A stretch of DNA of 63,981 nucleotides, counting the filler. It is 10 parts of 10 records of this genome, joined end to end, with 100 filler letters (N's around TTAATTAATTAA, not from the genome) between each part and the next. Parts side by side here need not be neighbours in the genome. Positions count along the whole stretch, not along the records: positions 59,664 to 63,981 come from SRR7504441_596; 9 more parts are not named here. One strand, written 5' to 3'. A program made the translations under genes and the position numbers. Below the pieces are notes generated by a model. That model was not told the DNA's origin, ran no database searches, and was given only the letters and a program-made list of their open reading frames with translations. Shown piece by piece: positions 15,195-63,981 of this stretch. The number at the start of each line of letters is the position of its first letter. Position 1 is the stretch's first letter.

Positions 15195-18100
15195 TTACAT
15201 GGCACTATGTTCAGCTCCACTATCTTGCTTCGATTCGTTCACTATTCCATCTGGACTCGATTGCAGGGACTCGTGTACAAAATCTGAGGCTAAGTTGTGC
15301 TCCACCACCTGGCATCAAGATCCATCAGATTTGCTATGTGCCTTGATGGCTTGGGGTAGCGTGGGGGCACCTCCTCAAGTTCAATTGCTTCACCGCTCAG
15401 AGAGGGGAGAGAGGGGGGATCGTCGTCATCATTGGGCTCCTCAGGCTGTTGATGTTTTGCAAAACGTAGGAAAACCTTCAAACGAGCTCAAGAGGGGGCT
15501 GCCAAGAAGAAATTGCCTGTTCTAAGGAGGTCTGAGATATAGAATAGTCTACAATCCCAAGTTGCACCTGCCAAACTAGGTGAACACCCACAGAGCAGCG
15601 CCGTGCCCTGTGAGACTCGAGGACTTGGAAAGTCGGGCCCAGCTCATCCTCTCGGATAGGGACATTGTCGTACCTCAACCTGCCAGGTACGCCAGGTTCG
15701 AGCTGGGCATCTGCATGTATCCTGCATAATCTGATTCAGCAACGGCCAATGCGCAACTCAGGGCCAGAAGGGAATATAAAAACTGCCTGCTCTTTACAAA
15801 TTCGTCCACAGCATCGCGCCTATCTCGATCCTCTGAGGAGAGCTGCAGCTCCAAAGTATACCCAGTGCCAAACCTTGGCATAGATCACTCCAGCCGAAAG
15901 CCGACGCTTTGGCACCTGGACTTGAGATGCTGCGCCGAGCCAATGCACGCAAGTTCGCCGTTGATCATGATAGCAATGCTCGTGCAAAGCTCATCAGCCT
16001 CCTCCATTGAGTGGGTGGTCAGTACAATGCACAGCTCGTCAAGATTGGCCCTGAGGAACCGCCAGATTGCATTCCTTGCGGCGGGATCTATCCCAGAGGA
16101 GGGTTCGTCGAGGAAAACCAGAGTGGGTGACCTGTAATAAGTTATTTCCAGGAGTGTTGGGCTCAAGTGCGCACCCAACCATAGCAATCGCTAGTGAAAG
16201 CTTTCTCCTGGTGCCACCAGAACAGTCCTCTGCCAGCCTGATGACAAAGCAAGTCAGTGAGGCAGCATGGGAAGTCGCCTATCAGCGTGATCTGTCAGGG
16301 CTAGGTGTGATATCAGCTCCGATACCCACTGGTCCCGGAATTTGACTCCCTTAATCCGCGCATAGAGTTCCAGGTGCTCTTTCACAGTCATCAACTCAAT
16401 CAAGGCATCAGTCTGAGGACAAAACCTTGCCAACCCACATCACAGGCCAACATGTTTGGCTGTGGTGCACCCAAAGGTCTTGTAAGCCTCTCGAAGCGCA
16501 AGATCGCGAACAGATCTACCGTTGAGCCAAGCGTCACCATCAGTCACCTAGTCCATAAGTCAGCCTGCAAAGAGTCGCGAGAAACCGAGATCTCTCCCGA
16601 CAGCATCGACAGCAGGGTAGTCTTCCCGGCACCATTGGGCCCTATCAGTCCGAAACAAGCTCCTTTCGAAGCTCCAAACGTCACTGAATTGACTGCAACC
16701 TTGGTTTGTTGTGCACACCGGCCATTGAGGCATTTATAGCTCTTGAAAACCTGCAGAGCAATCAAAGCTGTAGGTAGGCCCAAGCATTCACCTTGCGAAG
16801 TTCATTTAGCCGAAGTGAACAGCTATCGCCCTCATGCAACACCCTGTCCCTCTCGCGTAGCACGTCTTCATCCTCAGTGTGCCGGCCTCGAGTAGGGGTA
16901 TCATTACGCTTGCACTTTTTACAGAGGTATCGCCAGCACTGCTTGCACTTACAGCGGGTGTCGATAAGCAATACTAGGTAGAAGAACACACAAGCTTCGA
17001 TTAGCATGATCAAATAAGAGACCCGTATGACCCCTTTCTGGTGATCCCACGTCGCCACGTGCAAATCTTCTTCGGAGAGGATGCCCTGATTGATGATGTT
17101 GACCAGCCCGTAGGTCAAGCAGAAGTTTGGTGACAGCATGAACAAATTTCGGACCCAGATTGTTGCAAATTGGGACGAATCCATCTCCTCAATTGTCTCA
17201 AGAGCCACTACCATGACAAGCATGAGAAAGCTCACAACCTGGCTTGCTGTCTGCAGAACGCTCTGGCAAGTTGTGTGGTGCTCGAACAGAAATGACAGCA
17301 GATACATTAAAGGCACAATCGCAATCCCAAAGAACAGCAACAGGAGCACAACTGACAACAGCTGGAGCCCTCTGAATAACTGCACGTCAAGCACGAGCAC
17401 GAGCACACTGGTGGCAGCAATGGGCACTAGATATAGCAGATAGTCCACTATCAGATTGGTAGTCCAGTAAACCTGAATAGGTTCACTGTCTGCCCCTCTG
17501 AGAGGAATACATGCTAAATCTGAATTCAAACACGAAAGCACAAGCAAATACAGCACTAGCAACACTAACACACCTGTAAGGACGTCCCCGAAACAGTCAG
17601 CTGGTGCTTGGTCTTCGTTTCTTTCTCGCGGACCAGCGCCACAGCAAAGCTGATTGGGATGTGTGCAAATGCTGAGCTCACTAGAAAAATTGAATACAGC
17701 GCGACCTTGCACCCAGAGAAAATCAGAAACACAGGCTATTATGCATCCTAGGAATAAAGAGTACCGCAGAGATGAGGAGCGAGTTACTAGAACTGTCATC
17801 TGAGTCATAATATCGTTCGTGCGCAACCAGGATTTCAATTGGTCTGTCAAGCAGCACTTGGAGGTACGCAGAGTCGAGCATAGCGATGGCTGACGGGATG
17901 ATCCTATTCGCCGTCTGGTTGTACAAGAGCGTCACATCACAGCCAGTTCGCGAGTCAACCACTACCCCATTATGGCTTGGATAGTTCTGTGGATTCTGTA
18001 GTAAATAATCGAGAAGCGGCTCCTCATTGTGGAATTCCATTGAGGTATTGTATGCATTGTCTGCCTGACTCAACCAACTCCGAACCCAGTCCACACGATC

Positions 18101-22708: not shown

Positions 22709-22786
22709 CTCGGGGTCAGGAATAGCTGCGAGTTCCGTTGAATACCGCTGATACCGGCCTTCCGATCAGGGCTGCCGGCTTGCCAA
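22709..22786. promoter_or_regulatory. 78-bp bidirectional promoter with CCGTTG (22735-22740)
   Basis: Divergent ATGs at 22708(-) and 22787(+). Confidence 0.6.
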
Positions 22787-24825
22787 ATGCGGGGGGCGAG
22801 CGGCGAATCGGCGGCGCTGGCCCTGTCGGACTTCGAGATCGTCAAGATGATCGGCAAGGGATCGGCCGGGACCGCGCAGCTGGCCCGATGCCGCGCGGAC
22901 GGCAGCATGGTCTGCCTGAAGATGATCGAAGGCAGCTACTCGACCGAGTCGCACACAGTGGCGCTCAACCAGTCGTCATGGGCGGAGGTCCGGGTTCTCC
23001 AGCGGCTGGCCCACCCGCACGTGATTGGGTACCAAGGCTGCTTCCAGCACGGGAGCACACTGCACGTGGTAATGGAGTTCGCGGAGGGCGGAGATCTCGA
23101 GAAACTCTGGCTGCAGGCCCAGCGGGAGCAGCGGGGTTTCTCGGAGCAGCAGGTCGTCGGCTGGACTGGCCAGATCGCCCAGGCGCTCGAGTACGTCCAC
23201 AGCCAGAAGGTGCTGCACCGGGATCTCAAGCTGGCCAATGTACTGCTCGACGGCCAGAGCAGAGTCAAGCTGGCCGACTTTGGGCTGGCTCGCACGCTGG
23301 ACACACAGTCCTACCTGGCCCAGACCATGTGCGGCACCCCGTTCTACATCTCGCCCGAGCTTTGCAAGGGCGAGGCCTATGGGAGCAAGAGTGACATCTG
23401 GGCACTCGGATGCATTTTGTATGAGCTGCTCACACTCCGCCGGCCGTTCGACGGCAATGCGCTCCACGCGCTGGTGCTCAAGATCTGCACGGCCGAGGTC
23501 GCCCCGCTCTACCCGGTCCGGTCGCGTGCGATGGCCAAGCTAGTCTCCACGCTGCTTCAGAAGGATCCCAACCGGCGGCCGAGGGCAGCTGAGCTTGTCC
23601 GAGCCCCAATCTTCTCTTCGCTGTCGGCCCCGCTGCCGCCGGTTCCGGAGGCTGCGCGGAGGCTCACGCCGAGCGAGGCCAGGAGGCGCGCATCTGAGGG
23701 CGTGCGTCGCCTTAAAAACGACACACAGGGGTCGTGGGAGAGGGTCGAGCGGACTGAGAGGGCATTGAGTGCTGCCGAGCGGGTCCGGGGACAGTGTGCG
23801 GAGCAGTCGCTCGGACAGGAGCTGCTCAGCCCAGCCCAACGGATTAAGCAGAGCCAGGAGTGCGACCTAGTGACCACATGCAGCTCGGAACGGCTCGAGC
23901 ATGTGCGCGACCGGCCGAGCGAGCACTCGGAGCAGTTCGGCACGGCGCACTGGGGTGGCCAACGGAACTCTGTGCTCTGGAGCAAACAGAGCTCGGATGC
24001 GCTGGCGTTGGTGCAGGGCAGCGAGAGCGCGAGCCTGCTTGGTCAACTGATCAGCTGCCGGCTCCCACAGGCATCCACCGCCATTGCCGGGCTGAGCCTC
24101 CGCCAGGTGGAGATGGAGAAGTTTGTGGAGAGCTCGTTATCGCCGTTGCTGGCCCGACAGAGTTCACAGCCACAGCTTGTTGCGGCACTGCTAGTGCTCC
24201 AGCGTGTGTCGTCTGAGCCGCAGGTGCTGCAAGCGCTCCGGCAAACAACTGAATCCGGCAGGTTCGATCGACGGCCACACATGCACTGCTGTGCATACGT
24301 AAACACGGCGGGCTGACGATAGAAGTAACGCTGCCAGAAATGCATACACACAAGTCGGCCTCTGGGAGTGTCGAGTACACACTGTTCAACCTGCTGCTGG
24401 CAGTGAACATAGCACCGGTCGAGCTTCCCCAGGAATACACACACACTGCAATGGTCCGGCGATACTCGCAATTCAGAGAGCTTAGCAATCATTTGGAGAG
24501 CGATCCTGCGACTAAGGCGTTCTGGAAGGTGCTGTGGCGCTACTTTGGTCGGGCTGATGGAGGGCAGGCGGCCCCAGCAGCAGTCCACGATTTTCCAAAG
24601 AAGTTTTGGTTCAACAACTTTAATCAAGCCAAGTTAGAGCAGCGGCGGCATGAGCTCGAGGGCTGGCTACGAGGAGTGATGGTGGCAAGTGGGCTTGGGA
24701 ATTGTGAGGCAGTCGGCCAATTCCTGCGAATGCCGTGCCAGCCTGCTGAGATTGATGATGCTAGGCGGACCATCACTAGCCAAGAGGGCAAGCCCCTGGT
24801 GTTGTTGGAGAGTAACTACATGTAA
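22787..24825 (+). CDS. NIMA-related (NEK) kinase with C-terminal PX domain
   Basis: HRDLKLANV, DFGLAR, CGTPFYISPE, SDIWALGC; a 38-nt GT-AG intron near 24224-24261 joins an exon with VRRYSQFREL..FPKK..LEQRRHELEGWL. Confidence 0.85.
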
Positions 24826-27014: not shown

Positions 27015-27436
27015 AGTCAATAAACAATGAACAATAGCATATCATATTAAATGAGAGCAATACGTACGGCTCAACAACATTACGTACGGCTCAACAGGTC
27101 GGGGGCGTCCTTATCGGCGGCTAGTCGGCGGCCATCGTGACGCCCAGTCCGAGCAGGGCGATCCCCAGGCCGTATACGGCCATCTTGATGCATGTGTTCA
27201 TCATCGTCATCCTCTCGTGTCTTGCTCTTCCGCGGCCATTGCTTCCCGCGCCAGGCCCGGCCAACAGACTTCTGATGCCGTTTGTTTGGATTTCTTCTGG
27301 AAATGCCTCGCCGGTGAGGCTCATCACAGACGATCTCCGCCTGCCCGTCGCCGGTGCTGCTGGTCGAGGACAGAGACGACCGTCTGACCGAGCGAGGACA
27401 GAGACGACCGGCTGGCCGGGCACCGCGAGGGCAGCG

Positions 27437-29367
27437 ATGACAACCCAGCTCAAAGACTATTTGTTAGCGTGCTTGGCGGTACTGGTGGCGGCAGTGCCGC
27501 CCGGGAGCTCAAGCGAGCACAGCGCATTGGTAGCGCTGTACGAGGCCACGGCTGGCGGATCTTGGGCCCACAACGATGGCTGGCTCGAGGGCAGCTATTG
27601 CGACTGGCTTGGCGTCAACTGCACAGGGACGGGCAGCGGGGTGGCCACGCTGGCGCTGGACGAGAACGGGTTGCGCGGGACGGTCCCGGGCGCGCTGGCC
27701 GACCTTACGCAGCTCACCGATCTCAAGCTGATGTTTAATAGTCTTAGTGGCACGGTGCCAGCCGAGCTGGCCCTCCTTACTCGGCTGGCTGAACTCGCCC
27801 TCAGTGTGAACGACTTCAGCGGGACCATTCCAGCCAAACTGGCCAGCCTCACCCAGCTCTCGAAGCTCCGCCTATACCAGAACAGCTTGAGCGGGACGAT
27901 TCCGGCCGAGCTGGCTAGCCTCACCCAGCTCTCAGTGCTCGGCCTCGGTCTCGGTAGTCTGAGCGGCACAGTGCCTGCCAAACTGGCCAGCCTCACCCAG
28001 ATCACCAAGCTCTGGTTGAATAAAAACAAACTGAGCGGGACCGTCCCTGCTGAGCTGGCCGACCTCACTCACCTCACATTGCTGTTCCTGAAGGACAATC
28101 GGCTGAGCGGCACAGTGCCTGTGGAGCTTGCCAGGCTCAGTGCGATGCAGGACATGGACCTCGGCATCAACAGGCTGAGCGGCACACTGCCCACAGGCCT
28201 GGCCAGTTTCAAGCACCTGGCAGGACTCGGACTCCAAGCCAACATGTTCTCTGGCCATCTGCCGCTCGAGCTGCCACGGTCGCTCACGCTGATAATCCTC
28301 CACGCAAACCGCCTGTCGGGCACTCTGCCGTCGTTTGCCAGTCATAGTAGCCTCAGGGCACTCACCCTCTTTGGCAATGACCTCGGCGGTCGACTGCGGC
28401 TACCTAAGAATCACGCACCGTATCTCCAGATACTGGCCGTACACCGCAATAGGCTGTCCTGTCCGGTAGAATACAACGCAAGCTCATACAACATGAGTGT
28501 TCAGTTGAGTGTTCAGAACAACTATGAGACTGGGGCGCTGATCGCCCCAGGCAACCGGCTCAGCGCTGCAGCTAAGCCCCCTTGGGCGCTGATGAGCGAA
28601 GTTGGTTTCCAATGGGCACCTGAGGCTTTCTGGCAACAGTGGCAAACCGAGATCTGCGTTGCCATCGCGGGCGTGCTAGGAGGCGTGGCAGTGATATTTG
28701 TGGTGCTCAAGGCTAATTGGGGGAGCTTTTTCCGATTCCGACCCCATGGACTGTTTGAGCGGTACAGCTACCAGTGCGTGCGTGGGCTGCTCGCTCTAGG
28801 CCTCGCGGGTCTGGCCTTGATGCCGGTATATGCCTCGGGCGCAGGAGAGTTCGAGTGTGGCCAGCAGTGGCTTGGAGCCACTCTAGCCTACTTAAGTGGC
28901 AGCCCCACATCTGAGCAGGCGGCTGCAGTGATAATCTGTGTGATGCTGGGCTTACAAGCATTTGTCGCAGTCGCCATGCGCTTCTGGTCGCCTCTAGATC
29001 TGGAACTGCAAGACACGTGTTCGCATAATTCGTTGTCATGGCAGCGTTGGCTCGCTGTGCTGCTAATCTGGCCGTTGGGCACGATGGTGCTGTCGCTACC
29101 GGCCTTCTTCGCGGTTCTGGCCGACTCTGTGCCTGGTGATCAGAACACGCTCATGCTGTCGCAGACCACACTTGACGGTTTCAGGTACGCTTCCGCCCCT
29201 CTCCTGACACTCATCGAGTCCGTGGTGGTGCCTGCTTCGGCCCGGGCACTGGTGGGCAAAGGTGCCCCGCGCAAAGTAGTCGGGCTGATCGCACTCGCCC
29301 AGTTTATGATCCTACTGGTGGTGCCCTTTGTCACTGCCCTGGCTTTCGGGTCGGACTGCTATGGGCT
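27437..29367 (+). CDS. Secreted LRR ectodomain plus multi-pass membrane region (receptor-like), intronless, 3' partial
   Basis: Signal peptide, LRRNT (LVALY..W..C.W.GV.C), about ten 24-aa LxxLxxLxLxxNxLSGT.P repeats, then six or more hydrophobic helices. Confidence 0.85.
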
Positions 29368-29472
29368 NNNNNNNNNNNNNNNNNNNNNNNNNNNNNNNNN
29401 NNNNNNNNNNNTTAATTAATTAANNNNNNNNNNNNNNNNNNNNNNNNNNNNNNNNNNNNNNNNNNNNGCGCC

Positions 29473-32695: not shown

Positions 32696-33016
32696 ATATG
32701 CAACGCATACAGTACTGCGCATACAGTACATTTGAGCTCCGAGCAAGATCTGGCGTCAAAAACATCGGATTCTGTTGAATTTTTATCCAAATCTTGGGAG
32801 CGAGTAAACGACACTCGACCTCCAGGGCTATATGTAAAAATAATGTAAAAATATGCCGGAGTCTGAACATGTAATTTCTTGCGCTGCAATGGAATAGTCT
32901 CTACTCGGCGCTCTCCNNNNNNNNNNNNNNNNNNNNNNNNNNNNNNNNNNNNNNNNNNNNTTAATTAATTAANNNNNNNNNNNNNNNNNNNNNNNNNNNN
33001 NNNNNNNNNNNNNNNN

Positions 33017-36000
33017 CGAATAGTTTTCTTCCACTGCTTGCTCTTTGAGCCAGCTCGGCGCTCGAATTCAGAAGCAGCTACTGTGGTGGAGACATCGTTC
33101 TCGATGAATTGAACTGTGCTGTTGGCGAGGTCCAGTGTCCCAGTCAGTTCTTGGCACTTCACTTCTAGCTTAGTTGCTTTGTCAGTGTCCTCTGTCGCTG
33201 CAGATGCTTCTGCAGATGGCTTATGTGTGGCACTGAGGAATGGAAGATCCACGTCCTGTTGCATTGAATCGAATCTTGAGAGCCCGTGACGGTGGGCTCC
33301 ACGGAGCAATGCTTCATCGAATTCTGCGCTTGACCATTCCAAGCAGGGAATCGAAGATTCATCAGAGAAGTCCTTCAAGAGCTCGCTCAAAGGGGTCTGT
33401 TCAGACTGACTCATCAACTGTGCCAATTTATCGGCCTTCTGGATCGTGAGCTCCCACCGTGCACCCTTCCTTGCGACCTTTCCAACGAACTCGGGCGACT
33501 TGAGGTAATCAACCACCTCTGATGGCAGATCACGAGATGCAGGACACCAGCCCGCATCAATCGCATCCTCCTCGTCTTCGAACTTCATTCCATTGGGTGC
33601 AAAGTACATCATGATGTTCAGCCCATCGTCGTGCTTGATTTCCCAATTACTCTGGGCTCCACGGTCGCGGATATTAGCTAGCAGCACCTGCCCCACCGCC
33701 TCCACTTCTTCCACAGAGTGCTTTGAGTTCTGTTTAATGGCCATCTTGTGCACGGCGCCCCAGCGTGTGGGGCCGAGCTCGAGCATCGCATCAACCATTC
33801 GTTTGAGTTCAGCGCCATTCCATTTGGTCGACTGAGGCGCGAAATCGTCGCTTAGGTCAGAGTCGTCAGAGTCATCGTCGCCACCAAGCTCGTCTTGCTC
33901 GTAGGTCTTGACGCCAGCCCCATTGGAGACTACGTTCATACGAGAAGCCTGCTTTCGTATCCTTGGACCATCGACCAGGCCTTCAACGCGGTTGAGAGCT
34001 TCATCTGGCATCACCTTCTGCCAGAACGATGGATCTTCCATGTCGACCTCAGTGCCATCCCGAGCCTTGGCACAGAACTTGGCTTTGCTGAACGAGCTAT
34101 TCCCGCCATTGCCCCCAAGGTCACGCCGTTCGGCTCGCTTCAGGAGAATGTCGTCAATGTCCTCATTCGCATCGAGATCCTCGCCACCGTTGTCGTTCAT
34201 GATGTCGTAGGCCCCGAACTTGAGCAGATCTTCCATCTCCTGCTTGTCTGGTTCTGATTGGCTGACATCGTTGCAGAGCAGAGCCTGGTCCAGGCCAAGC
34301 TTCTTGCAGGAGAGCTCAAACATCTTCTGCTCGTATGTTCCAGTCGTGACTAGCCGGTAGACCTGAACGCCCTTCTGCTGCCCTATCCGATGGCATCGTG
34401 CCTGTGCCTGTAGGTCGTTCTGTGGGTTCCAATCTGAATCAAAAATGACCACAGTATCTGCTGCAGTCAGATTGATCCCCACTCCACCGGCTTTAGTCCC
34501 TAGAAGGAACACAAAGCGATCTGACTCGGGATCTTGAAATCGATCGATCGACTGCTGCCTCTGCAATCCGGTCACATTGCCGTCAATCCGTTCGTAAGCA
34601 TACTCTCGGTAGATTAGCACATCCTCCAGCAAGTCGAGCACACGAGTCCATTGGGAGAAAACAAGCAACCTGTGCCCATCCGCCTTCAGCTTGGGCAGAA
34701 GCTTGTCGAAGAACACGAACTTGCCACTACTGCGGATCAAACGGTCCTCTGCAGCGGTGATCTGGCTGTCTTGGGCCTCCTGCTCTTCTACATTCTTGAG
34801 TAGGTAAGGGTGGATACAAAGCTTGCGGAGCTCCATTGTCACATTGCGAAGTGACGGCATGTCACTCTTCTTGCCAGATTTACACAACACTGCTGTGTTC
34901 CTATCCAGCACTGCCCTGTAGTATTTCTTTTGAACAGCACACAGTTCCACCCAAATGATTGTTTCCTCTTTGGCGGCAATCGTCTTGTCTACATCCTCTT
35001 TCAGGCGCCTAAGCAAGTACGGCGCAAGCAGTTCCTGCAGTTGTACACAGTCCTCAGCATTGGTGACTGTATACTCCTCGAGGAATCCTCTGGATTCCCT
35101 CTCGAACGTATGCTCATCGATAAAGTGCAGCACGCTGTGCAGCTCGTCGAGATTGTTCTGTATCGGGGTGCCAGTCAGCAAGTGGCAGTGTCGCCACTTC
35201 AGCCGCCGCTCAGTGAGCAGCGACTTGTACAGCAGCGCGTTCTTATTCTTCAGCCGGTGCGCCTCATCCACCACGAGATACTCCCACTGAATCTTGGAGA
35301 GCACAGCCAGGTCCATGTTGACCATCTCGTAGGTTGTGATCATCACATCAAACCGGAGCTGATCTTTGCTCCCAAACTCGTGCTCTCGGATTACCTCCCG
35401 AGACTGGCCACTCCCGTGGTACACGATAGCGTCCAAACCAGTCCAGTTCTTCACCTCGCGCTGCCAGTGCGACGTTGTCGACAGCGGCACTACCACAAGG
35501 AACGGGCCCTTCACGCCCTGGTGCTCCCGCAGCTGCTGGAAAACACATACAGTCTGCGCAGTCTTGCCCAGGCCCATTTCATCAGCCAGAATGCAGTTCC
35601 GGCCTATCCGCCAGTTTTGGACCATCCAGTTCAGCCCTTCCACTTGGTACGGCCTCAGCGTTCGGCCTCCTTTGAACTCAGGCGACTCGTCCAGCTTCTG
35701 CCACGGTGCCTTCTTCCTGTCCACAGCGGCTCCTGCCTTGCGCAACGGGCATTCCTTCCTAACTCTCCACTCTGCTACCAGCTCTGGGCTCACGTCGGCC
35801 TGCAGCTCCCAGGTGCACTCTTCGTACTGCAGGCTGGCCCACTTGATCAGGAATTCCGGCCCTTCCCTCTCAGCCACAATCCTCTCGACTGCACACAAAC
35901 CAGGCTCATCATCCGAGCATGTAGAGGGTGACTACCGGTGCTGTACTCTGGCGGATAGTAAGGTGGGCCTGTGCTCGGGGTGTACTTGCTTTTGAACCTG

Positions 36001-37474
36001 CCCAGCCGGCTCAGCTAAGCACGAGGCCGATGACTTACGTTTTGAGCCTGTTGGGCGCAACGTGTGCAGCGAGTGACGCCTCGGACTGCCAGCTCGCGTG
36101 CAGATGCGAGCGAAGCTTCCACTTGACCAGAAACTCCACCCCGGGCTGGTCGACGCGGTAGGCCAGCAGCTTGTCTACCTGCTCCTCCAGTGGCTCCTCG
36201 CCAAAGTCGGCCTCGGCCAACTCATCCGCGTCCTCGTCCAGCGCCTCCCACGACGCAATCAGCGTCTGCCGCGCCGCCTCCAGCTGGTCGATCTCCTCTT
36301 GCTCGGCAGCCTGCTCCATCGCGGTCGGGATCACAGCCTCCAGCGCCGCCTCCAGCTCCTCCACCGAGTAGCCTTCAATCAGTCCCGTCTCCGACTTACT
36401 CGCAATCGCCGGAAGCAGTTCGGCAGCGAGTGTGTCGATCCTGGTCTGGAGCTTGATCGCAGCCTTGACGTCCGCGGCCCGGAGCTGATGCTCGCTTCCG
36501 TCGTCTAGCCAGACGTGCCAAAGCTTGGCCCGTCTACTCCACTTGGTTACAGTGCCACTCGACGCGGCCCAGCCGGTGGCGGCCTCGGGGTCCTCAGACC
36601 GCCAGGCAACCCTCTGGCCGATCCACTGGTGTCCATCGGTCTCCCACTCCGGTGCAGGCTCCTCCTCGCTGCTGTATTCCTCCTCGCCGTCAGTGACAGC
36701 TGCCCTCGCTGTCAATTCCGCGTCGCAGCAGGCCGGCAGCGCACCTTCAGTGTAGTCGACAAACTGTTTGTTCCTCTGCGGCGCCTTGCGCAGCCGGCTT
36801 CCCTCCTGCCTGCGGGGGGCAGCAGCTCGCGAGGCCCGCGTGCTGCGTGCAGGCTTTGGCTCGACCGCTTGGCCGGGCCAGCTGACACACGTGTATTGCT
36901 TCCTACAGCCGATCGACAGCGCGGGCTGGCACTTGGAACACAGGTCGATGCTCGTGTCGCCGTCCTGGCGGGTGTAGCGCGGCCCAACAATCGGCTCGGC
37001 CCCGCACTCATCGCAGGCGTACCCCAGGTGCTCGACGCACTTGAGCGCGTCCCGCTCGTGGACGAAGAGCTGGGTGCCCTGGAGCAGCCGGGAGGTCTGG
37101 GTGAGCCCCTCGAGGAACGGGGCGTTGATCTTGACCAGCAGCTTCGGGTCGAGCGACAGCCGGGCTGCGATTGCGCGCGGAGTCTCGTCCTCGGCCGCCA
37201 CGATTTGCTCGAGCTCCTCCTCTTCCTCGTCGCTCGACCATTCGTCGTCGTCCTCCTCGGACTCCTCCTCGGACTCCTCCTCCTCCTCGGACTCCTCTCG
37301 CGGGGCGGGCCTCCTCGGCCGCCGCCGCGGTGGGCTCTCCTCGGAGCTGTCGCCCTCATCGCAGGCCGAGCTCTCCTCAGCGTCCGAATCGGCGGCGGCT
37401 GGCGGCTGCGGTGGCTGGCGCGGGCGCAGGCTGCGCGCTGCGGGCATCTCGTCCTCGGAGCTCAGATCGGACAT
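33017..37474 (-). CDS. CHD-family SNF2 chromatin remodeller with extra LysM-like, ZZ and Tudor-like N-terminal domains; 3' partial
   Basis: Two chromodomains (EFLVKWK..SHLHASW; EFLIKWASLQYEECTWE), ILADEMGLGKT, DEAH, LTGTPIQNN, DSDWNPQNDLQAQARCHRIGQ. Confidence 0.93.
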
Positions 37475-37606
37475 CAGCCTGACGATGTGTGCGCCTGGTC
37501 GAGCTGGTCTGCTGCTGCGAGCTCTGGTTTGAAATCCCCGCTCTTTTCAAGCGGCAACGGACACAGAGCAGCTGCCGTCCTGCGCCACTGCTTGGGTCGA
37601 GCAGGA
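37475..37606. promoter_or_regulatory. 132-bp bidirectional promoter with CAACGG (37555-37560)
   Basis: Divergent ATGs at 37474(-) and 37607(+). Confidence 0.6.
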
Positions 37607-49998: not shown

Positions 49999-51862
49999 CT
50001 AGTATGACGTATGGTCATGTCGGGTGTGAGATTCGAGGCTAGTTTCCCACTCAAGCTCTTCGACAGCAGTGGCCCTAGTTTCCGTCTCGAGCTCCTCTGC
50101 TTGCCTAGCTACATCCTCAATCACATGATCGACACCGGCTTGCCACTCTGCCTCTTGCCAGTCGCCTTGTGCCCACTGCTCCTCGGTCCTCTCCACCCGA
50201 CCCGCGTGCTGCTCCATCGCCAGCTCCCTTTCCCTCCGTCCAGGAAACCCTAACTGTCCTTGCATCGGCCCTTGCAGAGCCCGTGCTTTGACTTTGAGCA
50301 TTTCTCTCGGCAGCCGGGTCCGAAGCCCTACAGCCAGTAGCTGCGAGAGTGGCGGCCGGTTCAGCAGAGACACCACTGCTGAGATGCTCAGCGGCTGCTC
50401 ACTCGGCAGCGCGCGCATCGCGTTCTGCCTGATCGATTGGCAAAAGTGGTCCGGGAGCGGACCGGCTGCCCGATCGAGCAGCTCGAGCACCACCTCGGGC
50501 GCCTGCTCGGGCAAGATTGCGTCAAACGTCTGCACTGCCTCGAAAGCCTCAATCAGAAACGCGATCAGCGCTGCAGGCGCGCAGTTCTCCAGGTTGAGCA
50601 GCTCTTGCCACTCTTCTGGCCCGGTCAGAGGCATGACGGGTGTCGGCTGGATTGTGAGCAGCCGAGTTTGGTTTGGATGCACACGCGCCGGTGTGGGAGT
50701 GCTCAGATGACTCTCTACCGTGCTCCGCCACTGCTGCACGCTCTCGGCATACTCCCTCGCCTCTGGGGTCAGCCGCGCGAGCTCCTCCTGCTCGGCCCGC
50801 AGCTGGCCGACTTGCTGGCGCGCTTTGCGGCCACGAACCTGCTGCTGTATGCTCATTGCAGCCTGCTCCTGCTCCTGCGCGGCTGAGAGCACCGAGTAAC
50901 GCGTCTCTCGCGCCACGCACCCGGCCTGCAGGATGGCCGCCGCCTCCGCATGACTCATGTCACTCACTCCACCGGACGGGTCCCACTCAGCTGGCGGTGG
51001 GGACTCCTCAACTTGGTGGGCGATCGGAAGCCCCGCGCCGACGTCGCTCTCCTCGTGCGTCTCTGTAGTGAGCTCATACGTCACTCCAGGCTCGCAGCCG
51101 GCCGCGACCTCCAGCTTGGCGGCCAGCTCGCCCAGGGCCCGGGCCTGCTCCAGCGCATTGGTGTACTGGTAGTTAAGTCCCATCTGCCTTGCTTCGCCCG
51201 CCATCTCGACCAGCAGCTGCTCGCTCAACTCACCCGTCTGGAGCAGCCCCTGCCAGCCCTGCAGCAACGACCCGTCGTGCACCCGCGCGGCCCGGAACAG
51301 CAGCTCGGCCGCCGCCCCGGCCGCCAGGGCCGCCGCCAGCACCTCAGCCGTCGCCCCGACCACCGGTCCGTCCCCCGCTGCAAGCTCCAACGACCCGCTG
51401 CCTGCTGTCAGGTCGCGCCTGGCAGTCTTCCCGCGCTGCACCGCCTGGATCCGAGTAGCCGCTGCGGCCTGCATCGCGGCCTCGTCATCCTCCTCCTCCT
51501 CTGGCCGGTCCTCGCCCTCCTCCTCCGGCAGACCATCGGCTTGCCTGCGCGCCCGTCGCTCGGCCGCCCGCCTGTCTCGCTCCTGGCTCCGGACTCAGCC
51601 ACTGCGGGGTGATCGGGGCACCTGCATCTCGGGCGAAAGGGACTCGTCCAGCCCGCGGATCTGCTGCTTGCCGCGGATGCCGTACTCCTCCTGGAGCCGA
51701 TGCAACTCATCGACGGTGCTCTCGATCCCAGAGTAGCCACCGCCCAACTTGCGGAACTGCAGGTAGCCTGCCCGCCCAGCTCGGCCCGGGCTCGACTGGC
51801 TCGCCACCGGAGGCCTGCGCCTGCTCCCAAGCCGCCTCCGCCTCCCAGTCGCACGAAGACAT
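49999..51862 (-). CDS. IQ-motif (calmodulin-binding) protein, two 5' introns
   Basis: AATRIQAVQRGKTARR, AAAILQAGCVARETR, AAMSIQQQVRGRKARQ. Confidence 0.7.
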
Positions 51863-59563: not shown

Positions 59564-59996
59564 NNNNNNNNNNNNNNNNNNNNNNNNNNNNNNNNNNNNN
59601 NNNNNNNTTAATTAATTAANNNNNNNNNNNNNNNNNNNNNNNNNNNNNNNNNNNNNNNNNNNNACGAGAGGCAATTCAACATCTGGCACCACTCGGTACG
59701 TCTCGAGGAGCGCGGCGCTGCTCGAGACGATACTCAGGTGTGCCGGGCCGAGGTTGGTGCGGGACCCGTGCGGGTCAGGTGTACACCTTCGGGTTTGGCA
59801 TAGAGCCATCGGTATCCGCGCAAGGACGACGGGAGCCAACGAGTGGAACGACACGAACCAGCGAACCAGACGATTGTCTGTGTTGCCGATGGAGCCGCGA
59901 CAACAACAATCCCGTTGAGATTAGGCCGGGGCCAAGCTCACAATGGAGTTGGGGGCAAGATCAGTATTGGGACTGGTGCTCGGGCTGTGGTGCGCG

Positions 59997-60753
59997 ATGG
60001 CCGACGGGAGCGCCGAGCTAACAACAAGCTCGCGCGTGGCCCGGCTGGATCCGCTCCAGCCCATCCCGGGCTCGCGCCTGGGCCGGTCCGAGCTAGAGGA
60101 GCAGATCGGGCGGGTGCGGGGCCAGCAGAACAAGCTGAACCGGTTGAATCGGGAGCTACGGACCGAGCTCGACCTCTCCGGGCGGCACGTCGACAATCAG
60201 CGCAGCATGAAGCGCCTGGTACGCAGGGCACGCCGCAAGGCATGAGCATCGGGCTTGCTTACTAGCTGAGCCGGGGGGGCAGCTCGATCGGACCCGGGGG
60301 CAGCTGGCAGGGCTGCGCGAGGCGCTGGAGCAAGCGTACAAGGGCCAGGACCCCGTCGGAGTCCGGAGCAAACTGGACGGCGCAAGGGCCGAGAAGCGGG
60401 CGGCCTACCAAGTCTTCGCGACCAAGCTGAGGGACTCCGCGGCCAAGGACGTTGCGCGTGAGAACCGGGCGCGGCGCTTGCGGCACAAGGCACTGGAGTG
60501 CGTGGATCACCGCTGCGTGCTCCGGGTGCAGCTCAAGGCCGCACGGGCCAAGCTGGCTGGGTTGCGGAGGAAGAACAGGGAGCTGGTGGAGGCTCTGGGG
60601 ATTGCGACCGGGATCGGGCAGGACGATATGAGCAAGACGATGCTTCATCTGAAGGAGAATCAACGCAAGGTGAGCGCGGAGAAGCAGCTGCTTCAGACTG
60701 AGCTGAAGGACCAAGTGAAGCAGAATTTGAGGTTCAGAAGAGACGTGCCGTGA
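59997..60753 (+). CDS. Hypothetical coiled-coil protein
   Basis: ORFs 59943-60245 and 60478-60753 with an intron-like gap. Confidence 0.5.
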
Positions 60754-60948: not shown

Positions 60949-63900
60949 TTACTTTTTTTTGCCGGGCTTCTTGGCACTACGGACGTACATTCCGAGTTCG
61001 CCACATGCTTTGAGCTCCTCCGGAGTCATTGTCTTCTCATACGCTGCTCGCTTCTCCGAATGCTCCTGCACCAGACCAACTGAGTCCAAGGATCAACCAG
61101 CAACACACCCGGAGCGCGGCCTTCTGCTCGTCTGTCGGCTTGGGCGCGGGCTTACCAGGTTCCGATCGCTGCGGGGCTGCCGGAGCCTACAACCGTGCAC
61201 GTAAGCTCACTCATGATACAAGGGCTGGCACCTCCTTCTGAAGCGCAGCGAGCGCTGCCGTGATCTCGGCCATCCTGGCTTCATCTATTATTACGGCTTC
61301 TGACGTGTTTTGGGCCTCGCTCTCAGCTTCAGGCTCGTCAGTAACCTCCACTGTCACAGCGAGGCCGAGCTCAACCAGCTGGGGCTGAGCCAGCATGCTC
61401 GGCGTCTTAATCATGGCATCTCCGCCACCCCTCGTCTTCGGGAAAGCAATATAGTCGCGGATTGATGCGCCAGTTGCCACATCAAGCTGCTGTGGGATTC
61501 CGGCAATCATCTTGCCCTTGGAGTCGGTCTGCGGAGCGCCAAGGATGGTGCACAGCCGGTCGAGCCCGAATGCGAGCCCACCTGACTCGGCTCAACACGT
61601 GGCTGGCGCTGGCGGAGTCACCGTGAGGCGGCGCCCCATTCTCAAAGGCATCCATGATGAAGCCAAACTGCTTGGTGTACTCTTCCGGTGTCATACCGAG
61701 CAGTTCAAACATCCGGCGCTGGTGTGTCGAGTTGGTGATCCGAATAGACCCTCCGCCCACCTAGCCCGGTCTCAGATCACCAGGCAGACAGCCGAGCACC
61801 TCCTGGCCGTTGATCACCATGTCGTACGCATTTGCACGGATGGCTTCAAGCTGCGCTGGGTCGTCCGATGGCTGGCATGTCATAAAGCCCTCGAGAGATT
61901 CGGCCTTGCACGAAGTGAACGGGTGGTGCATGGCCACACAGCGCTCGGCGTCCTCGTCCCACTCGAGCAACGGAAAGTCCATCACCCACAGCGCTGAGAA
62001 CCCATTGGAGCGCAGACCAAGCTCGCTCCCAAAGTGGTGTCGGAGCTTGCCCATGCACATCTGAGTCTCCATGTGCTTGTTTGGTCCGGATAGCAGCACC
62101 ATCACCTGCCAGCACAAGGCTCGCCGCGCAACGGGCTGGCAGACCCACCGAGCCGTCATTGGCGCCCAGCTCGTCAGCCCAGCCGGCGAGTTGCTCTGGC
62201 GTGAAGTTCTTTTTCACCGGAGTCTCAAACTTGCCAGCAGCCTTGTCCACGACCTTGACCCAGACCAGCCCTGCGCCGATCTCCTTCTTCTTGGCTAGCA
62301 GGAAGAGCTCCTCGACGAACTCGACCTGTTGAAGCTTCTCTAGAGACTTCTTGGAGGCGAAACCCTTGTTCCATTCGGCCTCGTTCATCGTATCGGGGCA
62401 CGCAGCGCACAGACCGACCACGTGCTCTGCTGTATCCAGCATTGGGAACGGGTTAGCTGCTTTGCCCTGGACCAGCGCGGACATGTCCTTGAGCTTCATA
62501 TCGAACCTCAAGTCGGGCTTGTCGATCCCGTAGTCCCGGAGCGCCACGTCGAATGGAATCCGCTGGAACGGGCGGGGCAAATCGACTCCGGCCACCTTGA
62601 GGAACACGTTGTGCATCATAGTCTCAAACGTGTTGATCACGTCCTCCTGGGTCACAAACGACCTGCCACCACAGCTTAATCTGCAGCTGGATCCCGGCTT
62701 GACTCACATTTCACAGTCAACCTGAGTGAACTCGGGCTGCCGGTTCTGCGCAATCACAGTGCCCTCGTCGCGGAAGCACTTGACGATCTGGAAGTAGCGG
62801 TCCATCCCGCCCACCATGATCAGCTGCTTGAACGTCTGTGGCGACTGCGGCAGGGCGTAAAACTTGCCCTGTTGCTCACGGCACGGCACAACAAAGTCGC
62901 GCGCGCCCTCTGGCGTGCTCTTGATTAGATACGGAGTCTCCACCTGCGCCGGGTCGGCCCACCGCCACCGGCCGAGCCGTCACCTCGCAGAAATCAAGCC
63001 CGTTCAGGATCTCACGGACAGCGATCGTGGCGCGATTCCTAAGCAGAAGCGCCTCTCGCACTGGGTTGCGGCGGAGGTCGAGGTAACGATAAGCCAGCCG
63101 GGCATCATAGCCGGCGTCGGTCTTGTCCTCGATTTTGAATGGCGGTGTCTTGGACTCGTTCAGCACCTTGAGCTCTGTTGGGAGCACCTCAATCGCTCCG
63201 GTCGGGCGGTTCATGTTCTTGTTTGAGCGCATCTGCACCTTGCCCGTGACCTGGACCACCCACTCTCGCCCAAGCTGCTTGGCCTGCTCATACAGCTGCT
63301 TGCCCTGCTCGTCGTTGTTGCACACGCACTGGGTGATCCCAAACCGGTCCCGGATGTCAACGAAGCAAAAGTGCTTCTGGTCGCGAGCGGTCTGCACCCA
63401 GCCCGACAGCGTCACCGTCTGGCCGATGTGGCTCTCGCGCAGCTCGCCACATGTATGGCTCCGATACCCGGTGCTTAGGTCCACGGGACCCTTCGGTACG
63501 CCCGCCGGTCCGGTGGCCGCCGCGCCGCCCAGCCGCTGGGCGATCCACCCAGCTGGGTCTGCCGGCTGCTGCAGGGCCAGCTCCTTTGCCAGTCCGTCGA
63601 ACAGCTTCTCCACCTGGTGCTGCGCGAAGTAAGCCTGGCAGTCCACCACCGGCTGCTCGGGCGCCGCCGGCTGGGTCGCGTTCTTTTGCTGCTTCGGCGG
63701 CTTGGCGGCCGGCTTGGCGGCCGGTTTGCTGGCCTCCTTGGGCTTTTTCTCCTTGGCCGGGGGCTCCTTGGGCTTCTTCTCCTTCTTGCCCTTGGGCTTG
63801 GGCTTGAGCGGGTGGTCTGGCACAGCGCCGTGAGCCCTGGGGATCGGCGGGCGTGCACCGTCAGGCAGCTGGTCCTTGAGCGCGAGCAGCTTGCCCACCT

Positions 63901-63981
63901 GCAGACCCGGCTCGCCGGCCGCCAGGCCCCAGCGGCTGCCTCGGCGGTAATGGCGGCCTTGTCGGCCTTGGCGTCCTTCAG
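60949..63981 (-). CDS. aspS: Bacterial-type aspartyl-tRNA synthetase with N-terminal WHEP and Dpy-30/RIIa-like domains and a C-terminal extension; 5' partial
   Basis: [74 protein letters not shown]; at least eight introns; stop TAA 60949-60951. Confidence 0.95.

What the first reader, a model, noticed from the sequence alone, without database searches (positions are those of the whole stretch)
60949..63981. Bacteroidota-like AspRS with introns and eukaryotic appended domains (WHEP + Dpy-30/RIIa-like)
Seen: a bacterial-architecture AspRS with a GAD insertion, interrupted by host-style tiny introns, so not contamination. Upstream in frame: [25 protein letters not shown] (WHEP), a Lys/Pro linker, and [34 protein letters not shown] (D/D dimerisation motif); downstream, a roughly 100-aa tail ending KKPGKKK. 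From recall, [44 protein letters not shown] and [11 protein letters not shown] resemble Bacteroidota AspRS more than mitochondrial DARS2. WHEP domains are normally on cytosolic eukaryotic GlyRS/HisRS/MetRS/TrpRS/EPRS. Inference: a horizontally acquired enzyme adapted to cytosolic (or dual) function, possibly scaffold-anchored.
Basis: partly seen in the sequence, partly recalled or inferred. Interest (0 to 1): 0.78.

Follow-up and report, generated by a model that had tools for sequence, protein, structure and literature searches.

The report
Bacterial-type AspRS with eukaryotic add-ons
A marine protist's nuclear gene encodes an aspartyl-tRNA synthetase of bacterial (Bacteroidota-like) ancestry that carries eukaryote-style tRNA-binding and docking domains, which suggests it was recruited to work in the cytosol.

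Summary
On the minus strand, 63981..60949, lies a gene for a bacterial-type AspRS. It has 10 exons and 9 introns of 39-45 nt, and its 5' end is cut by the window edge. RNA contigs from marine poly(A) metatranscriptomes show 4 of the 9 introns spliced out. Colinear orthologous transcripts (P0001, P0130, P0132, P0004) support the rest of the model.

In three tree analyses, the core falls in a eukaryote-dominated clade that includes Bigelowiella and Gymnochlora. That clade is sister to Bacteroidota AspRS. An AU test rejects grouping with plant, glaucophyte or insect organellar AspRS (p=4.6e-05).

The WHEP domain is confirmed: orthologs score 40-45 bits against a gathering cut-off (GA) of 32.5, and the domain begins 2-12 residues after their Met. 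The Dpy-30/RIIa-like D/D module is supported by Pfam (6 of 6 segments), by a PDB profile search (all 10 hits appear to be D/D-type proteins) and by a confident model. The 101-aa tail is real, conserved and matches no known family. Pfam does not detect GAD in this subclade.

Cytosolic function is inferred from the add-ons and the absence of a presequence; it is not shown. Whether a DARS1-type gene persists could not be tested, because no genome is held. I rate this a new variant of a known kind, of moderate interest.

The parts
60949..63981 (-). Whole visible gene: 10 exons, 884 codons plus stop. The first ~20 codons, judged from orthologs, lie beyond the window end.
   Evidence: Spliced translation is open and 2655 nt long, a multiple of 3. 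It is colinear with P0001, P0002, P0003 and P0004.
63866..63981 (-). C-terminal 25 residues of a WHEP-TRS helix-turn-helix. Exon 1 is 63981-63940 and exon 2 begins at 63898. They are split by a 41-nt GC..AG intron, 63939-63899.
   Evidence: Gap-free alignment to the WHEP of P0001 and P0002. PF00458 scores 40.2-45.2 bits (GA 32.5) in 4 of 4 N-terminally complete orthologs. This intron is not covered by RNA contigs.
63817..63858 (-). Probable in-frame 42-nt GT..AG intron.
   Evidence: Its removal gives [15 protein letters not shown], which matches orthologs. No RNA cover.
63650..63865 (-). Lys/Pro/Ala-rich linker, about 58 aa after splicing.
   Evidence: The equivalent low-complexity linker is present in P0001, P0130, P0132 and P0156. 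It attracts unrelated contigs.
63521..63649 (-). Dpy-30/RIIa-like dimerisation/docking (D/D) module. The core motif is at 63631-63530.
   Evidence: Pfam Dpy-30 PF05186 scores 22.0 bits (GA 22), E=1.3e-4, on the isolated segment, and 6 of 6 orthologous segments hit it. The PDB profile search gives FAP385 at E=0.0017 and PKA RI-alpha D/D at 0.0038; all 10 hits appear to be D/D-type proteins. The AF2 model has pLDDT 85.1 and three helices. The top fold neighbours are D/D domains.
63161..63415 (-). OB-fold anticodon-binding domain.
   Evidence: PF01336, E=4.6e-17, 62.2 bits.
61346..63106 (-). Class II catalytic core (motifs 1-3) spread over exons 3-8. It includes the ~170-aa insertion domain (62523-61962), an altered motif-2 loop (62775-62662) and a 26-aa insert before the SIRD motif (61540-61463).
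   Evidence: PF00152 hits in five exon translations. 170 of 171 columns invariant in alignment A1 are kept.
62944..62983 (-). Intron, 40 nt, GT..AG.
   Evidence: Colinearity with orthologs. No RNA cover.
62663..62707 (-). Intron, 45 nt, GT..AG.
   Evidence: An RNA contig joins across it in run X1 (table 5).
62106..62148 (-). Intron, 43 nt, GT..AG.
   Evidence: RNA contig joint in run X1, flagged 'between: not known'.
61761..61799 (-). Intron, 39 nt, GT..TAG.
   Evidence: Colinearity. A relative's contig in X1 has a loose end at 61806. By my reading, it reverse-complements to ..E-VGGGSIRI without the 39 nt (table 7). This is weak evidence.
61582..61621 (-). Intron, 40 nt, GT..AG.
   Evidence: Colinearity. 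No RNA cover.
61187..61231 (-). Intron, 45 nt, GT..AG.
   Evidence: RNA joints in runs X5 and X6.
61066..61108 (-). Intron, 43 nt, GT..AG.
   Evidence: RNA joints in 4 of 4 runs from 4 studies.
60952..61345 (-). C-terminal extension, 101 aa after splicing: an acidic stretch, three predicted helices and a Lys-rich end.
   Evidence: Conserved in P0001, P0130, P0132 and P0004. No Pfam or PDB relative. AF2 model has pLDDT 74.7. No fold match.

Best explanation
This is a nuclear, intron-bearing gene of a marine protist. It encodes a catalytically intact bacterial-type (class IIb) aspartyl-tRNA synthetase.

The core belongs to a eukaryote-dominated clade that is sister to Bacteroidota AspRS, which points to an old bacterial acquisition. 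It is not the plant, glaucophyte or animal organellar lineage.

In this subclade the enzyme has gained several parts:
- an N-terminal WHEP helix-turn-helix;
- a Lys/Pro-rich linker;
- a Dpy-30/RIIa-type D/D module just before the anticodon-binding OB fold;
- a changed motif-2 loop;
- two inserts;
- a 101-aa helical, Lys-tailed C-terminal extension.

Most likely it works in the cytosol as the usual alpha2 dimer charging tRNA-Asp. WHEP, the linker and the Lys tail would add non-specific tRNA or protein affinity, as in other cytosolic eukaryotic synthetases. The D/D module would either tie the two N-termini together or offer a groove for an amphipathic helix of a partner or scaffold.

Shown: gene structure, splicing, domain identities, phylogenetic position. 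Inferred: cytosolic location, roles of the add-ons, tRNA adaptation of the motif-2 loop.
For: Gene and splicing:
- Four introns are removed in RNA contigs from poly(A) marine metatranscriptomes.
- The whole spliced protein is colinear with transcript-derived orthologs.
- There is no in-frame ATG between the WHEP remnant and the middle of the OB fold. The add-ons and the core are therefore one ORF.

Core:
- Pfam finds PF01336 and PF00152.
- 170 of 171 invariant columns are kept.
- PDB best hits, in bits: 6wom_A 592, Thermus 467, E. coli 412, human mitochondrial 4ah6 330, cytosolic eukaryote-type about 80.

Phylogeny:
- In one search, every listed hit with an NCBI or UniRef organism name is a Bacteroidota entry (Maribacter, Flavobacterium, Flavobacteriaceae, Aggregatimonas), except one labelled as a metagenome.
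- All of the best 80 of 597 confirmed genome loci are Bacteroidota.
- FastTree (236 rows), IQ-TREE quick LG+C20 (86 rows) and LG+F+G4 (50 rows) all place the gene in one clade: 18 rows in the first two trees (support 99) and 16 in the third (98.9), with Bigelowiella (P0158) and Gymnochlora (P0091).
- That clade is sister to Bacteroidota (support 95 and 93).
- The AU test rejects union with named organellar AspRS (dlnL 222.5, p=4.6e-05).

Add-ons:
- WHEP is above the Pfam cut-off in 4 of 4 complete orthologs.
- Dpy-30 is hit by 6 of 6 segments. D/D proteins top both the PDB profile search and the fold search.

Cytosolic reading:
- Four orthologs (P0001, P0130, P0132, P0156) start with Met followed within 2-12 residues by WHEP. 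Acidic residues appear from position 3-5 on, unlike the presequence-like N-termini of P0139 and of the plant organellar enzyme P0243.
- A sister-lineage protein, P0008, carries a GST_C domain (28.2 bits, GA 20.7), another add-on typical of cytosolic synthetases.
- Precedent: plant cytosolic AsnRS is described as an organellar-type enzyme captured by the cytosol together with gain of a WHEP domain (PMC7564348, passages read).
Against: - There is no localisation evidence of any kind.
- The window lacks the first ~20 codons, so an upstream exon with a targeting signal in this particular gene cannot be excluded.
- Whether a eukaryote-type DARS1 exists in the organism is unknown, because no genome is held.
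- Some members of the wider clade look organelle-targeted (P0139), so the ancestral role of the clade may have been organellar.
- Phylogeny limits: the clade is sister to, not nested in, sampled Bacteroidota. Support comes from SH-like tests only, because bootstrap runs never finished. Most non-Bacteroidota rows are unnamed. The locus scan used motifs that may favour Bacteroidota.
- At least three rows of the 'eukaryotic' clade (P0134 with its cluster-mate P0006, and P0010) come from unnamed contigs of 85-327 kb whose origin I could not check.
- The Dpy-30 score sits exactly at the Pfam cut-off for the isolated segment and below it in full-length context (15.8-17.1 bits). Foldseek E-values for the 43-residue model are all above 0.1.
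- The first WHEP intron has a GC donor and no RNA support.
Confidence: 0.65

Rival explanations
1. It is the organism's organellar (mitochondrial and/or plastid) or dual-targeted AspRS. The add-ons would then serve inside the organelle, or an unseen upstream exon or alternative start would supply a targeting signal.
For: - Bacterial-type AspRS is the normal organellar enzyme of eukaryotes (established knowledge).
- One clade member, P0139, has a basic, Ser-rich N-terminus free of acidic residues.
- The window's own N-terminus is missing.
- No second AspRS gene could be looked for.
Against: - Four orthologs start Met-WHEP with acidic residues from position 3-5.
- In the passages I read, WHEP and GST add-ons are catalogued on cytosolic eukaryotic synthetases only (PMC11580382; PMC7564348).
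- The AU test rejects grouping with named plant, glaucophyte and insect organellar AspRS.
Confidence: 0.2
2. It is an extra, specialised paralog, while a normal DARS1-type enzyme still serves bulk cytosolic translation. For example, it could be a synthetase tethered by its D/D module to an AKAP-like or axonemal scaffold, or a protein with a non-translational role.
For: - The best sequence and fold neighbours of the D/D module include axonemal proteins: radial-spoke FAP385 and NME5.
- WHEP domains are linked to non-canonical functions in the literature (PMC7564348 introduction).
- The motif-2 loop is altered relative to all bacterial and other clade members.
Against: - 170 of 171 invariant core columns are kept, which argues for a working synthetase.
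- Parts of the gene are held by RNA runs of several marine studies, as expected of a housekeeping gene. Contig data cannot rank expression.
- No evidence on DARS1 either way.
Confidence: 0.12
3. Artefact: bacterial contamination, a chimeric assembly, or WHEP and D/D exons that belong to a separate upstream gene.
For: - The window is a gapped draft with 792 N.
- The first intron has a GC donor and no RNA cover.
Against: - Spliceosomal-type introns are removed in RNA from four studies.
- The same WHEP-linker-D/D-core-tail order is found in independent transcript assemblies from JGI, ENA, Tara-type sets and EukProt.
- The frame is open, with no ATG, from the WHEP remnant into the OB fold.
Confidence: 0.03

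Closest known systems
Bacterial AspRS of Bacteroidota (AspRS-B; best solved relative PDB 6wom_A, which I recall, not from a call, as an Elizabethkingia enzyme)
   Same: - OB anticodon-binding domain, class II core and large insertion domain.
- 53.5-55% identity over about 580 residues to Flavobacteriaceae enzymes.
- 592 bits to 6wom_A.
   Different: - Nuclear gene with 9 introns.
- WHEP, linker, D/D and a 101-aa tail are added.
- The motif-2 loop reads GTVIAQN where bacteria have (D/E)LRAD.
- There are extra inserts in the insertion domain and before SIRD.
- The Pfam GAD model no longer detects the insertion domain.
Organellar AspRS of eukaryotes (human DARS2, PDB 4ah6; plant chloroplastic/mitochondrial AspRS, P0243; insect mitochondrial, P0244/P0288; Cyanophora, P0210)
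   Same: Bacterial-type architecture, encoded in the nucleus.
   Different: - Different branch of the tree; union rejected by the AU test.
- Only 330 bits to 4ah6.
- No presequence in orthologs.
- Carries add-ons of the cytosolic type.
Plant cytosolic AsnRS: 'cytosolic capture' of an organellar-type enzyme together with gain of a WHEP domain (PMC7564348, passages read)
   Same: A class IIb synthetase of bacterial or organellar type that gained a WHEP domain while apparently taking over a cytosolic role.
   Different: - There the WHEP is inserted inside the catalytic domain of AsnRS, and the source is organellar.
- Here the WHEP is N-terminal, on AspRS, and combined with a D/D module and a tail. 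The source lineage is Bacteroidota-like.
WHEP-bearing cytosolic synthetases. [quoted passage not shown]
   Same: A terminal WHEP helix-turn-helix followed by a flexible linker.
   Different: AspRS-B is not in that list. Here the WHEP sits on a bacterial-type core.
Dpy-30/RIIa D/D domain proteins (PKA R subunits, DPY-30/Sdc1, NME5, radial-spoke FAP385, SPA17)
   Same: - A module of about 40 residues with a short helix plus two helices and the conserved P-x-D-P turn.
- Profile and fold neighbours.
   Different: It is fused to a synthetase. Neither dimerisation nor a partner is shown. No paper in the library links Dpy-30 to a synthetase domain: one search found 2 papers, both unrelated judging by title and abstract.

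Membership tests
Bacterial-type AspRS (class IIb, AspRS-B; Pfam PF01336 + PF00152 + PF02938; NCBIfam TIGR00459) | N-terminal OB-fold anticodon-binding domain | tested here: met
   PF01336, E=4.6e-17, 62.2 bits against cut-off 27.
Bacterial-type AspRS (class IIb, AspRS-B; Pfam PF01336 + PF00152 + PF02938; NCBIfam TIGR00459) | Class II catalytic core with conserved motifs 1-3 and the Asp-family residues | tested here: met
   PF00152 in five exon translations. 170 of 171 columns invariant across 15 clade and Flavobacteriaceae sequences are kept; the one change is I to V.
Bacterial-type AspRS (class IIb, AspRS-B; Pfam PF01336 + PF00152 + PF02938; NCBIfam TIGR00459) | Large GAD insertion domain between motifs 2 and 3 | tested here: inconclusive
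   A ~170-aa insertion colinear with the bacterial GAD region is present. PF02938 is not detected in the window's exons, where the domain is split by an intron. It is also absent in 5 of 5 subclade proteins scanned, while 5 of 5 other clade members scanned have it.
Bacterial-type AspRS (class IIb, AspRS-B; Pfam PF01336 + PF00152 + PF02938; NCBIfam TIGR00459) | Groups with bacterial-type AspRS, not with archaeal/eukaryotic-type AspRS | tested here: met
   PDB bits are 330-592 for bacterial or mitochondrial-type enzymes against about 80 for yeast or human cytosolic AspRS. Trees agree.
Bacterial-type AspRS (class IIb, AspRS-B; Pfam PF01336 + PF00152 + PF02938; NCBIfam TIGR00459) | Charges tRNA-Asp with aspartate | not testable with these tools
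   Needs an aminoacylation assay.
WHEP-TRS domain (PF00458) | Match to the Pfam model above its gathering score | tested here: inconclusive
   The window holds only the last 25 residues, split by an intron, so they could not be scanned as one piece. Orthologs P0001, P0132, P0130 and P0123 score 40.2-45.2 bits against 32.5 (4 of 4). The window's residues align to them without gaps.
Dpy-30 / RIIa dimerisation-docking (D/D) domain (PF05186 / PF02197) | Sequence match to the family profile | tested here: met
   The isolated window segment scores 22.0 bits (cut-off 22), E=1.3e-4. 6 of 6 orthologous segments hit PF05186, best E 5.4e-05; RIIa is hit by 1 of 6. In full-length context the score is 15.8-17.1 bits, below the cut-off. 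The PDB profile search returned 10 hits, which all appear to be D/D-type proteins, best E 0.0017.
Dpy-30 / RIIa dimerisation-docking (D/D) domain (PF05186 / PF02197) | Helix-turn-helix fold of the D/D type | tested here: inconclusive
   The AF2 model has pLDDT 85.1 and helices at 4-10, 13-27 and 32-39. Foldseek finds nothing at E<=0.001. The top ranks are D/D domains: PKA RI-alpha with TM 0.77-0.80 and rmsd 1.1-1.2 A, FAP385, NME5, RII-alpha, Dpy30 and SPA17.
Dpy-30 / RIIa dimerisation-docking (D/D) domain (PF05186 / PF02197) | Forms a homodimeric four-helix bundle that binds an amphipathic helix | not testable with these tools
   Needs biophysics, such as SEC-MALS, a crystal structure or a pull-down.
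Organellar (mitochondrial/plastid) AspRS | N-terminal targeting presequence | tested here: not met
   The window's own start is missing. Orthologs P0001, P0130, P0132 and P0156 start Met-WHEP with 5-6 acidic residues in the first 30. P0139 and plant P0243 have none. No predictor such as TargetP was available.
Organellar (mitochondrial/plastid) AspRS | Common descent with known organellar AspRS | tested here: not met
   The AU test rejects one clade with plant, Cyanophora and insect organellar sequences and their unnamed partners (dlnL 222.5, p=4.6e-05).

The most novel reading that the evidence does not exclude
In a lineage of marine protists, the ancestral eukaryote-type cytosolic AspRS has been fully replaced by an enzyme of Bacteroidota-like origin. 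That enzyme then acquired eukaryotic synthetase add-ons independently: WHEP plus a Dpy-30/RIIa D/D module here, and a GST domain in a sister lineage. On this reading the D/D module is a previously undescribed way to assemble or anchor a synthetase, for example onto an AKAP-like or axonemal scaffold or into a multi-synthetase complex. The rebuilt motif-2 loop would be the adaptation to eukaryotic tRNA-Asp acceptor stems.
Probability: 0.3. Interest if true: 0.75.

Novelty: new variant of a known kind. Interest (0 to 1): 0.55.

Why it matters
Synthetase add-on domains such as WHEP and GST are used as markers of eukaryotic cytosolic complexity and of multi-synthetase complex assembly. Here a bacterial-type core has gained them, together with a D/D module. 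The papers I could search do not connect a D/D module with any synthetase.

If the enzyme is cytosolic, it would be a second natural case, after plant AsnRS, of a bacterial-type class IIb synthetase taking over a cytosolic job together with gain of a WHEP. That would make it a natural experiment in three questions:
- how a foreign synthetase is fitted to host tRNAs;
- how it is fitted to host protein networks;
- whether D/D docking can organise translation factors.

It also shows that a Bacteroidota-like AspRS lineage is spread over several protist groups. This matters for reading synthetase trees and for calling horizontal transfer.

Tried and rejected
- Whole genome. None is held, so there was no search for DARS1 or a second AspRS, and the 5' end could not be recovered from the assembly.
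- Metagenome contig scan with exon 2 (one search was a frame slip). 279 of 596 stretches were relatives and the best 80 were kept. All 80 match only residues 110-277 at 52-60% identity, so they are bacterial-type loci. None carries the N-terminal extension, and the 5' end was not recovered.
- RNA contigs. Five of nine introns and the WHEP junction are uncovered. The one contig touching 63951-63981 (run X5) continues into a different WHEP-like sequence.
- Complex prediction on two copies of the D/D segment (after queue-full answers). No verdict (score 0.31, mark 0.32); this counts neither for nor against.
- ESM Atlas for the D/D part and the tail: no usable hit.
- Word-based search with P0001 residues 98-150: found only itself among 49 candidates, so it says nothing about D/D modules on other proteins.
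- Tail. Profile against PDB and Pfam gave only chance-level rows. The fold search of the model found nothing at E<=0.001.
- Careful IQ-TREE with bootstraps and treekit's own AU run did not finish on one CPU. I report the quick and fast trees instead. The unfinished intermediate tree put the unnamed P0146 next to P0141 but otherwise kept the same arrangement.
- Taxon of the host. A search with the window's CHD-type helicase gave unnamed marine hits at 63-71% identity and animal CHD6-9 at about 53%, which is uninformative.
- Earlier findings of this scan: none.
- Literature: no paper describing a WHEP- or Dpy-30-bearing AspRS. Subscription journals and supplements were not searched.
- Control genomes gave tallies only, not sequences.
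Full report
**1. What is in the sequence.**

Reading the minus strand from 63981 down to 60949 gives an AspRS gene split by nine very short introns. My exon model has these exons: 63981-63940, 63898-63859, 63816-62984, 62943-62708, 62662-62149, 62105-61800, 61760-61622, 61581-61232, 61186-61109 and 61065-60952, followed by the stop codon TAA at 60951-60949.

It yields an open frame of 2655 nt, 884 codons plus the stop. The introns are 41, 42, 40, 45, 43, 39, 40, 45 and 43 nt. Eight begin with GT (all eight begin GTG) and one begins with GC. Eight end in CAG and one in TAG.

No in-frame ATG occurs before the middle of the OB fold. Translation must therefore start upstream of the window, and the N-terminal add-ons belong to the same reading frame.

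**2. Expression and splicing.**

- The stretch, or parts of it, is held by 20 listed runs, 18 of them RNA, from 13 studies of sea water. Many are poly(A)-selected. The best run holds 23% of the sampled words and none reaches half.
- I laid four RNA runs from four studies.
- Contigs join across 61108-61066 in 4 of 4 runs, across 61231-61187 in 2 of 4, and across 62707-62663 in 1 of 4.
- Contigs join across 62148-62106 in 1 of 4, with the tool's caveat 'between: not known'.
- These joints corrected my first guess for the tail, which was a 33-nt intron. They also show that the stop codon at the end of the long ORF (VPALVS*) is intronic.
- Five introns, including both near the WHEP, have no RNA cover.
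- For the 39-nt intron, a relative's contig has a loose end which, by my reading, reverse-complements to ..E-VGGGSIRI without the 39 nt. This is a weak hint.
- These are contigs, not reads, so they say nothing about expression level or strand.

**3. Orthologs validate the model.**

A search with the large exon against longer proteins scored 8000 candidates, found 4978 hits and listed 120. The top of the list was:
- P0001 (900 aa) and P0002 (881 aa), with WHEP, OB and class II core already annotated;
- P0003 from EukProt, whose full isoform P0132 has 903 aa;
- P0004 (1036 aa).

The spliced window protein aligns to them end to end, apart from small length differences in the low-complexity linker and in lineage-specific inserts. 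The alignment covers the WHEP remnant, linker, D/D motif, core and tail. Identity is 73% to P0132, 71% to P0001 and 61% to P0004.

P0001, P0130, P0132 and P0156 start with Met followed within 2-12 residues by the WHEP. P0123 starts already inside the domain. P0003 and P0156 carry sequencing-adapter-like junk at their 5' ends; recognising it as such is from recall. About 20 codons of the window's gene are therefore missing.

**4. The core.**

- Pfam finds the OB fold (E=4.6e-17) and the class II D/K/N core in five exons.
- Of 171 columns invariant among 15 clade and Flavobacteriaceae sequences, the window keeps 170. The one change is I to V.
- The enzyme therefore looks active.
- Pfam GAD is not found in the window's exons, nor in P0001, P0132, P0130, P0123 or P0004. 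It is found in P0008, P0139, P0135, P0006 and P0091.
- The region is nevertheless colinear with the bacterial GAD region and has extra inserts. I call it a diverged insertion domain.
- The subclade also has GTVIAQN in the motif-2 loop, where bacteria and the other clade members have (D/E)LRAD.
- It has a 26-residue insert before the SIRD motif.
- From established structural knowledge of class II synthetase-tRNA complexes (recalled), the motif-2 loop touches the acceptor end. A tRNA-adaptation reading is therefore plausible, but it is inference.

**5. Where the core comes from.**

- Named hits. Every listed row with an NCBI or UniRef organism name is a Bacteroidota entry, except one labelled as a metagenome. 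Identity is 58-61% over the OB fold and the first part of the core.
- PDB, in bits: 6wom_A 592, Thermus 467, E. coli 412, human mitochondrial 330, yeast and human cytosolic about 80.
- Species genomes. 597 of 600 pattern matches were confirmed and the best 80 are all Bacteroidota: 55 Flavobacteriia, 9 Bacteroidia, 6 Sphingobacteriia, 3 Cytophagia, 2 Saprospiria and 5 unclassified. The two search motifs may favour that phylum.
- Representative library. An exhaustive search gave 21403 hits. I took the best 150 and named 20 of them through their clusters. Those with organism names were Bigelowiella natans (P0158), Blattabacterium (P0147), a plant 'chloroplastic/mitochondrial' AspRS (P0243), Cyanophora (P0210), two insect mitochondrial enzymes (P0244, P0288) and a Bacillota cluster (P0196). 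Gymnochlora (P0091) was named by its taxid.

Three trees agree: FastTree with 236 rows, IQ-TREE quick LG+C20 PMSF with 86 rows and 585 columns, and IQ-TREE fast LG+F+G4 with 50 rows.
- The window groups with P0132 and P0001/P0130/P0123 (support 99), then with P0004 (100).
- This group sits inside a clade with the two chlorarachniophytes, the GST-bearing P0008, the presequence-like P0139 and others: 18 rows in the first two trees (support 99) and 16 in the third (98.9).
- That clade is sister to the Bacteroidota clade (FastTree 95, IQ-TREE 93).
- Plant, Cyanophora and insect organellar enzymes lie elsewhere in the tree.
- Forcing the subclade together with those organellar sequences costs 222.5 log-likelihood units and is rejected (AU p=4.6e-05).

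Limits of the phylogeny:
- Support values come from SH-like tests only.
- The root is assumed to lie among the distant rows.
- Most outgroup rows are unnamed.
- Three rows of the clade (P0134, its cluster-mate P0006, and P0010) come from long unnamed contigs that I could not inspect.

**6. The add-ons.**

WHEP:
- PF00458 scores 40.2-45.2 bits (cut-off 32.5) in 4 of 4 complete orthologs.

D/D module:
- In full-length context, Dpy-30 is sub-threshold at 15.8-17.1 bits.
- On the isolated 41-46-residue segments, 6 of 6 hit PF05186, best E 5.4e-05. The window's segment scores 22.0 bits, exactly the cut-off.
- A profile of the six segments, searched against all PDB sequences, returns ten hits at E<=10: radial-spoke FAP385 (0.0017), PKA RI-alpha D/D (0.0038, plus longer constructs), NME5 and yeast Sdc1. 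All appear to be D/D-type proteins; for FAP385 that classification is from recall.
- The AlphaFold model has pLDDT 85.1 with a short helix plus two helices.
- Foldseek E-values are weak for so short a query. Even so, the top ranks are PKA RI-alpha D/D (TM 0.77-0.80, rmsd 1.1-1.2 A), FAP385, NME5, RII-alpha, Dpy30 and SPA17.

Tail (101 aa):
- It is conserved across the subclade.
- It models as three helices plus a disordered Lys-rich end, with pLDDT 74.7.
- It has no relative in Pfam, in PDB sequences or by fold.

**7. How it most likely works.**

Shown: a spliced nuclear gene for an intact bacterial-type AspRS with WHEP, linker, D/D and tail.

Inferred: it acts in the cytosol. The grounds are:
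- orthologs have no presequence and are acidic from residue 3-5 on;
- in the passages I read, WHEP and GST add-ons are listed only for cytosolic-type families, and AspRS-B is not among them (PMC11580382);
- a sister lineage independently carries a GST_C domain;
- plant cytosolic AsnRS is a described precedent of cytosolic capture together with WHEP gain (PMC7564348).

By analogy with other eukaryotic synthetases (recalled knowledge), the WHEP, the Lys-rich linker and the Lys tail would raise tRNA affinity or mediate protein contacts. AspRS is already a dimer, so the D/D module could clamp the two N-termini or present the usual groove for an amphipathic helix. None of this is tested.

**8. Comparison and novelty.**

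- It works like, and passes the testable criteria for, a bacterial-type AspRS.
- It fails both tested criteria for an organellar AspRS.
- It is not a DARS1-type enzyme.
- Searches of the paper library found no description of an AspRS with a WHEP or of any synthetase with a Dpy-30 module. Subscription journals and supplements were not covered.
- I therefore rate it a new variant of a known kind.
- The boldest reading still open is full replacement of the cytosolic enzyme, with D/D docking as a new assembly principle. That needs the genome and bench work.

**9. Verdict.**

Interest is 0.55: the domain combination and the phylogenetic position are unusual and well supported, but transfer of synthetase genes and accretion of domains are familiar themes. 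The key functional claims remain inference.

Noticed in passing
P0008 (794 aa): A sister-lineage bacterial-type AspRS carries an N-terminal GST_C domain (28.2 bits, cut-off 20.7) and a sub-threshold Arc1p_N-like match. The AARS Online table I read does not list GST for AspRS-B.
   Followed up: partly
P0004 (1036 aa), P0141 (708 aa), P0135 (659 aa): - P0004 lacks the WHEP. It keeps the D/D module at its very start and has about 230 extra C-terminal residues with no Pfam hit.
- P0141 has a different ~150-aa Lys-rich N-terminal extension.
- P0135 ends in a Cys-rich CxxC-type stretch.
   Followed up: no
window 63951-63981 (table 7, run X5): One RNA contig matches only these 31 bases. It then continues into a different sequence whose reverse complement reads like another WHEP helix, probably a different WHEP-bearing gene of some organism in the sample.
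   Followed up: no
window 63681-63886: The Lys-rich linker DNA attracts many unrelated contigs (summed depth 21 in run X2). This is a low-complexity trap for read mapping.
   Followed up: no
window 51277-51369 (-): ARAGORN calls a 93-nt tRNA-Ala (GGC). That is long for a tRNA, so it may hold an intron or be a false call.
   Followed up: no
window 1888-2829, 9830-11287, 16762-20965, 22742-24316, 27125-29419, 32965-37546: The neighbouring long ORFs are typical eukaryotic genes: DUF4457, palmitoyl-protein thioesterase, an ABCA-type transporter, a protein kinase, an LRR protein, and a CHD-type chromo-helicase whose best named relatives are animal CHD6-9.
   Followed up: partly
whole window: There are 792 N, mostly in blocks of 88. 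GC swings from 49% to 68% between 4-kb bins. The window is a gapped draft scaffold.
   Followed up: no
window 59925-60753 (+): The convergent neighbour is a coiled-coil-like ORF pair. By eye, the two ORFs are joined by a GT..AG intron of about 62 nt near 60220-60281. A TGTAA follows right after its stop.
   Followed up: no
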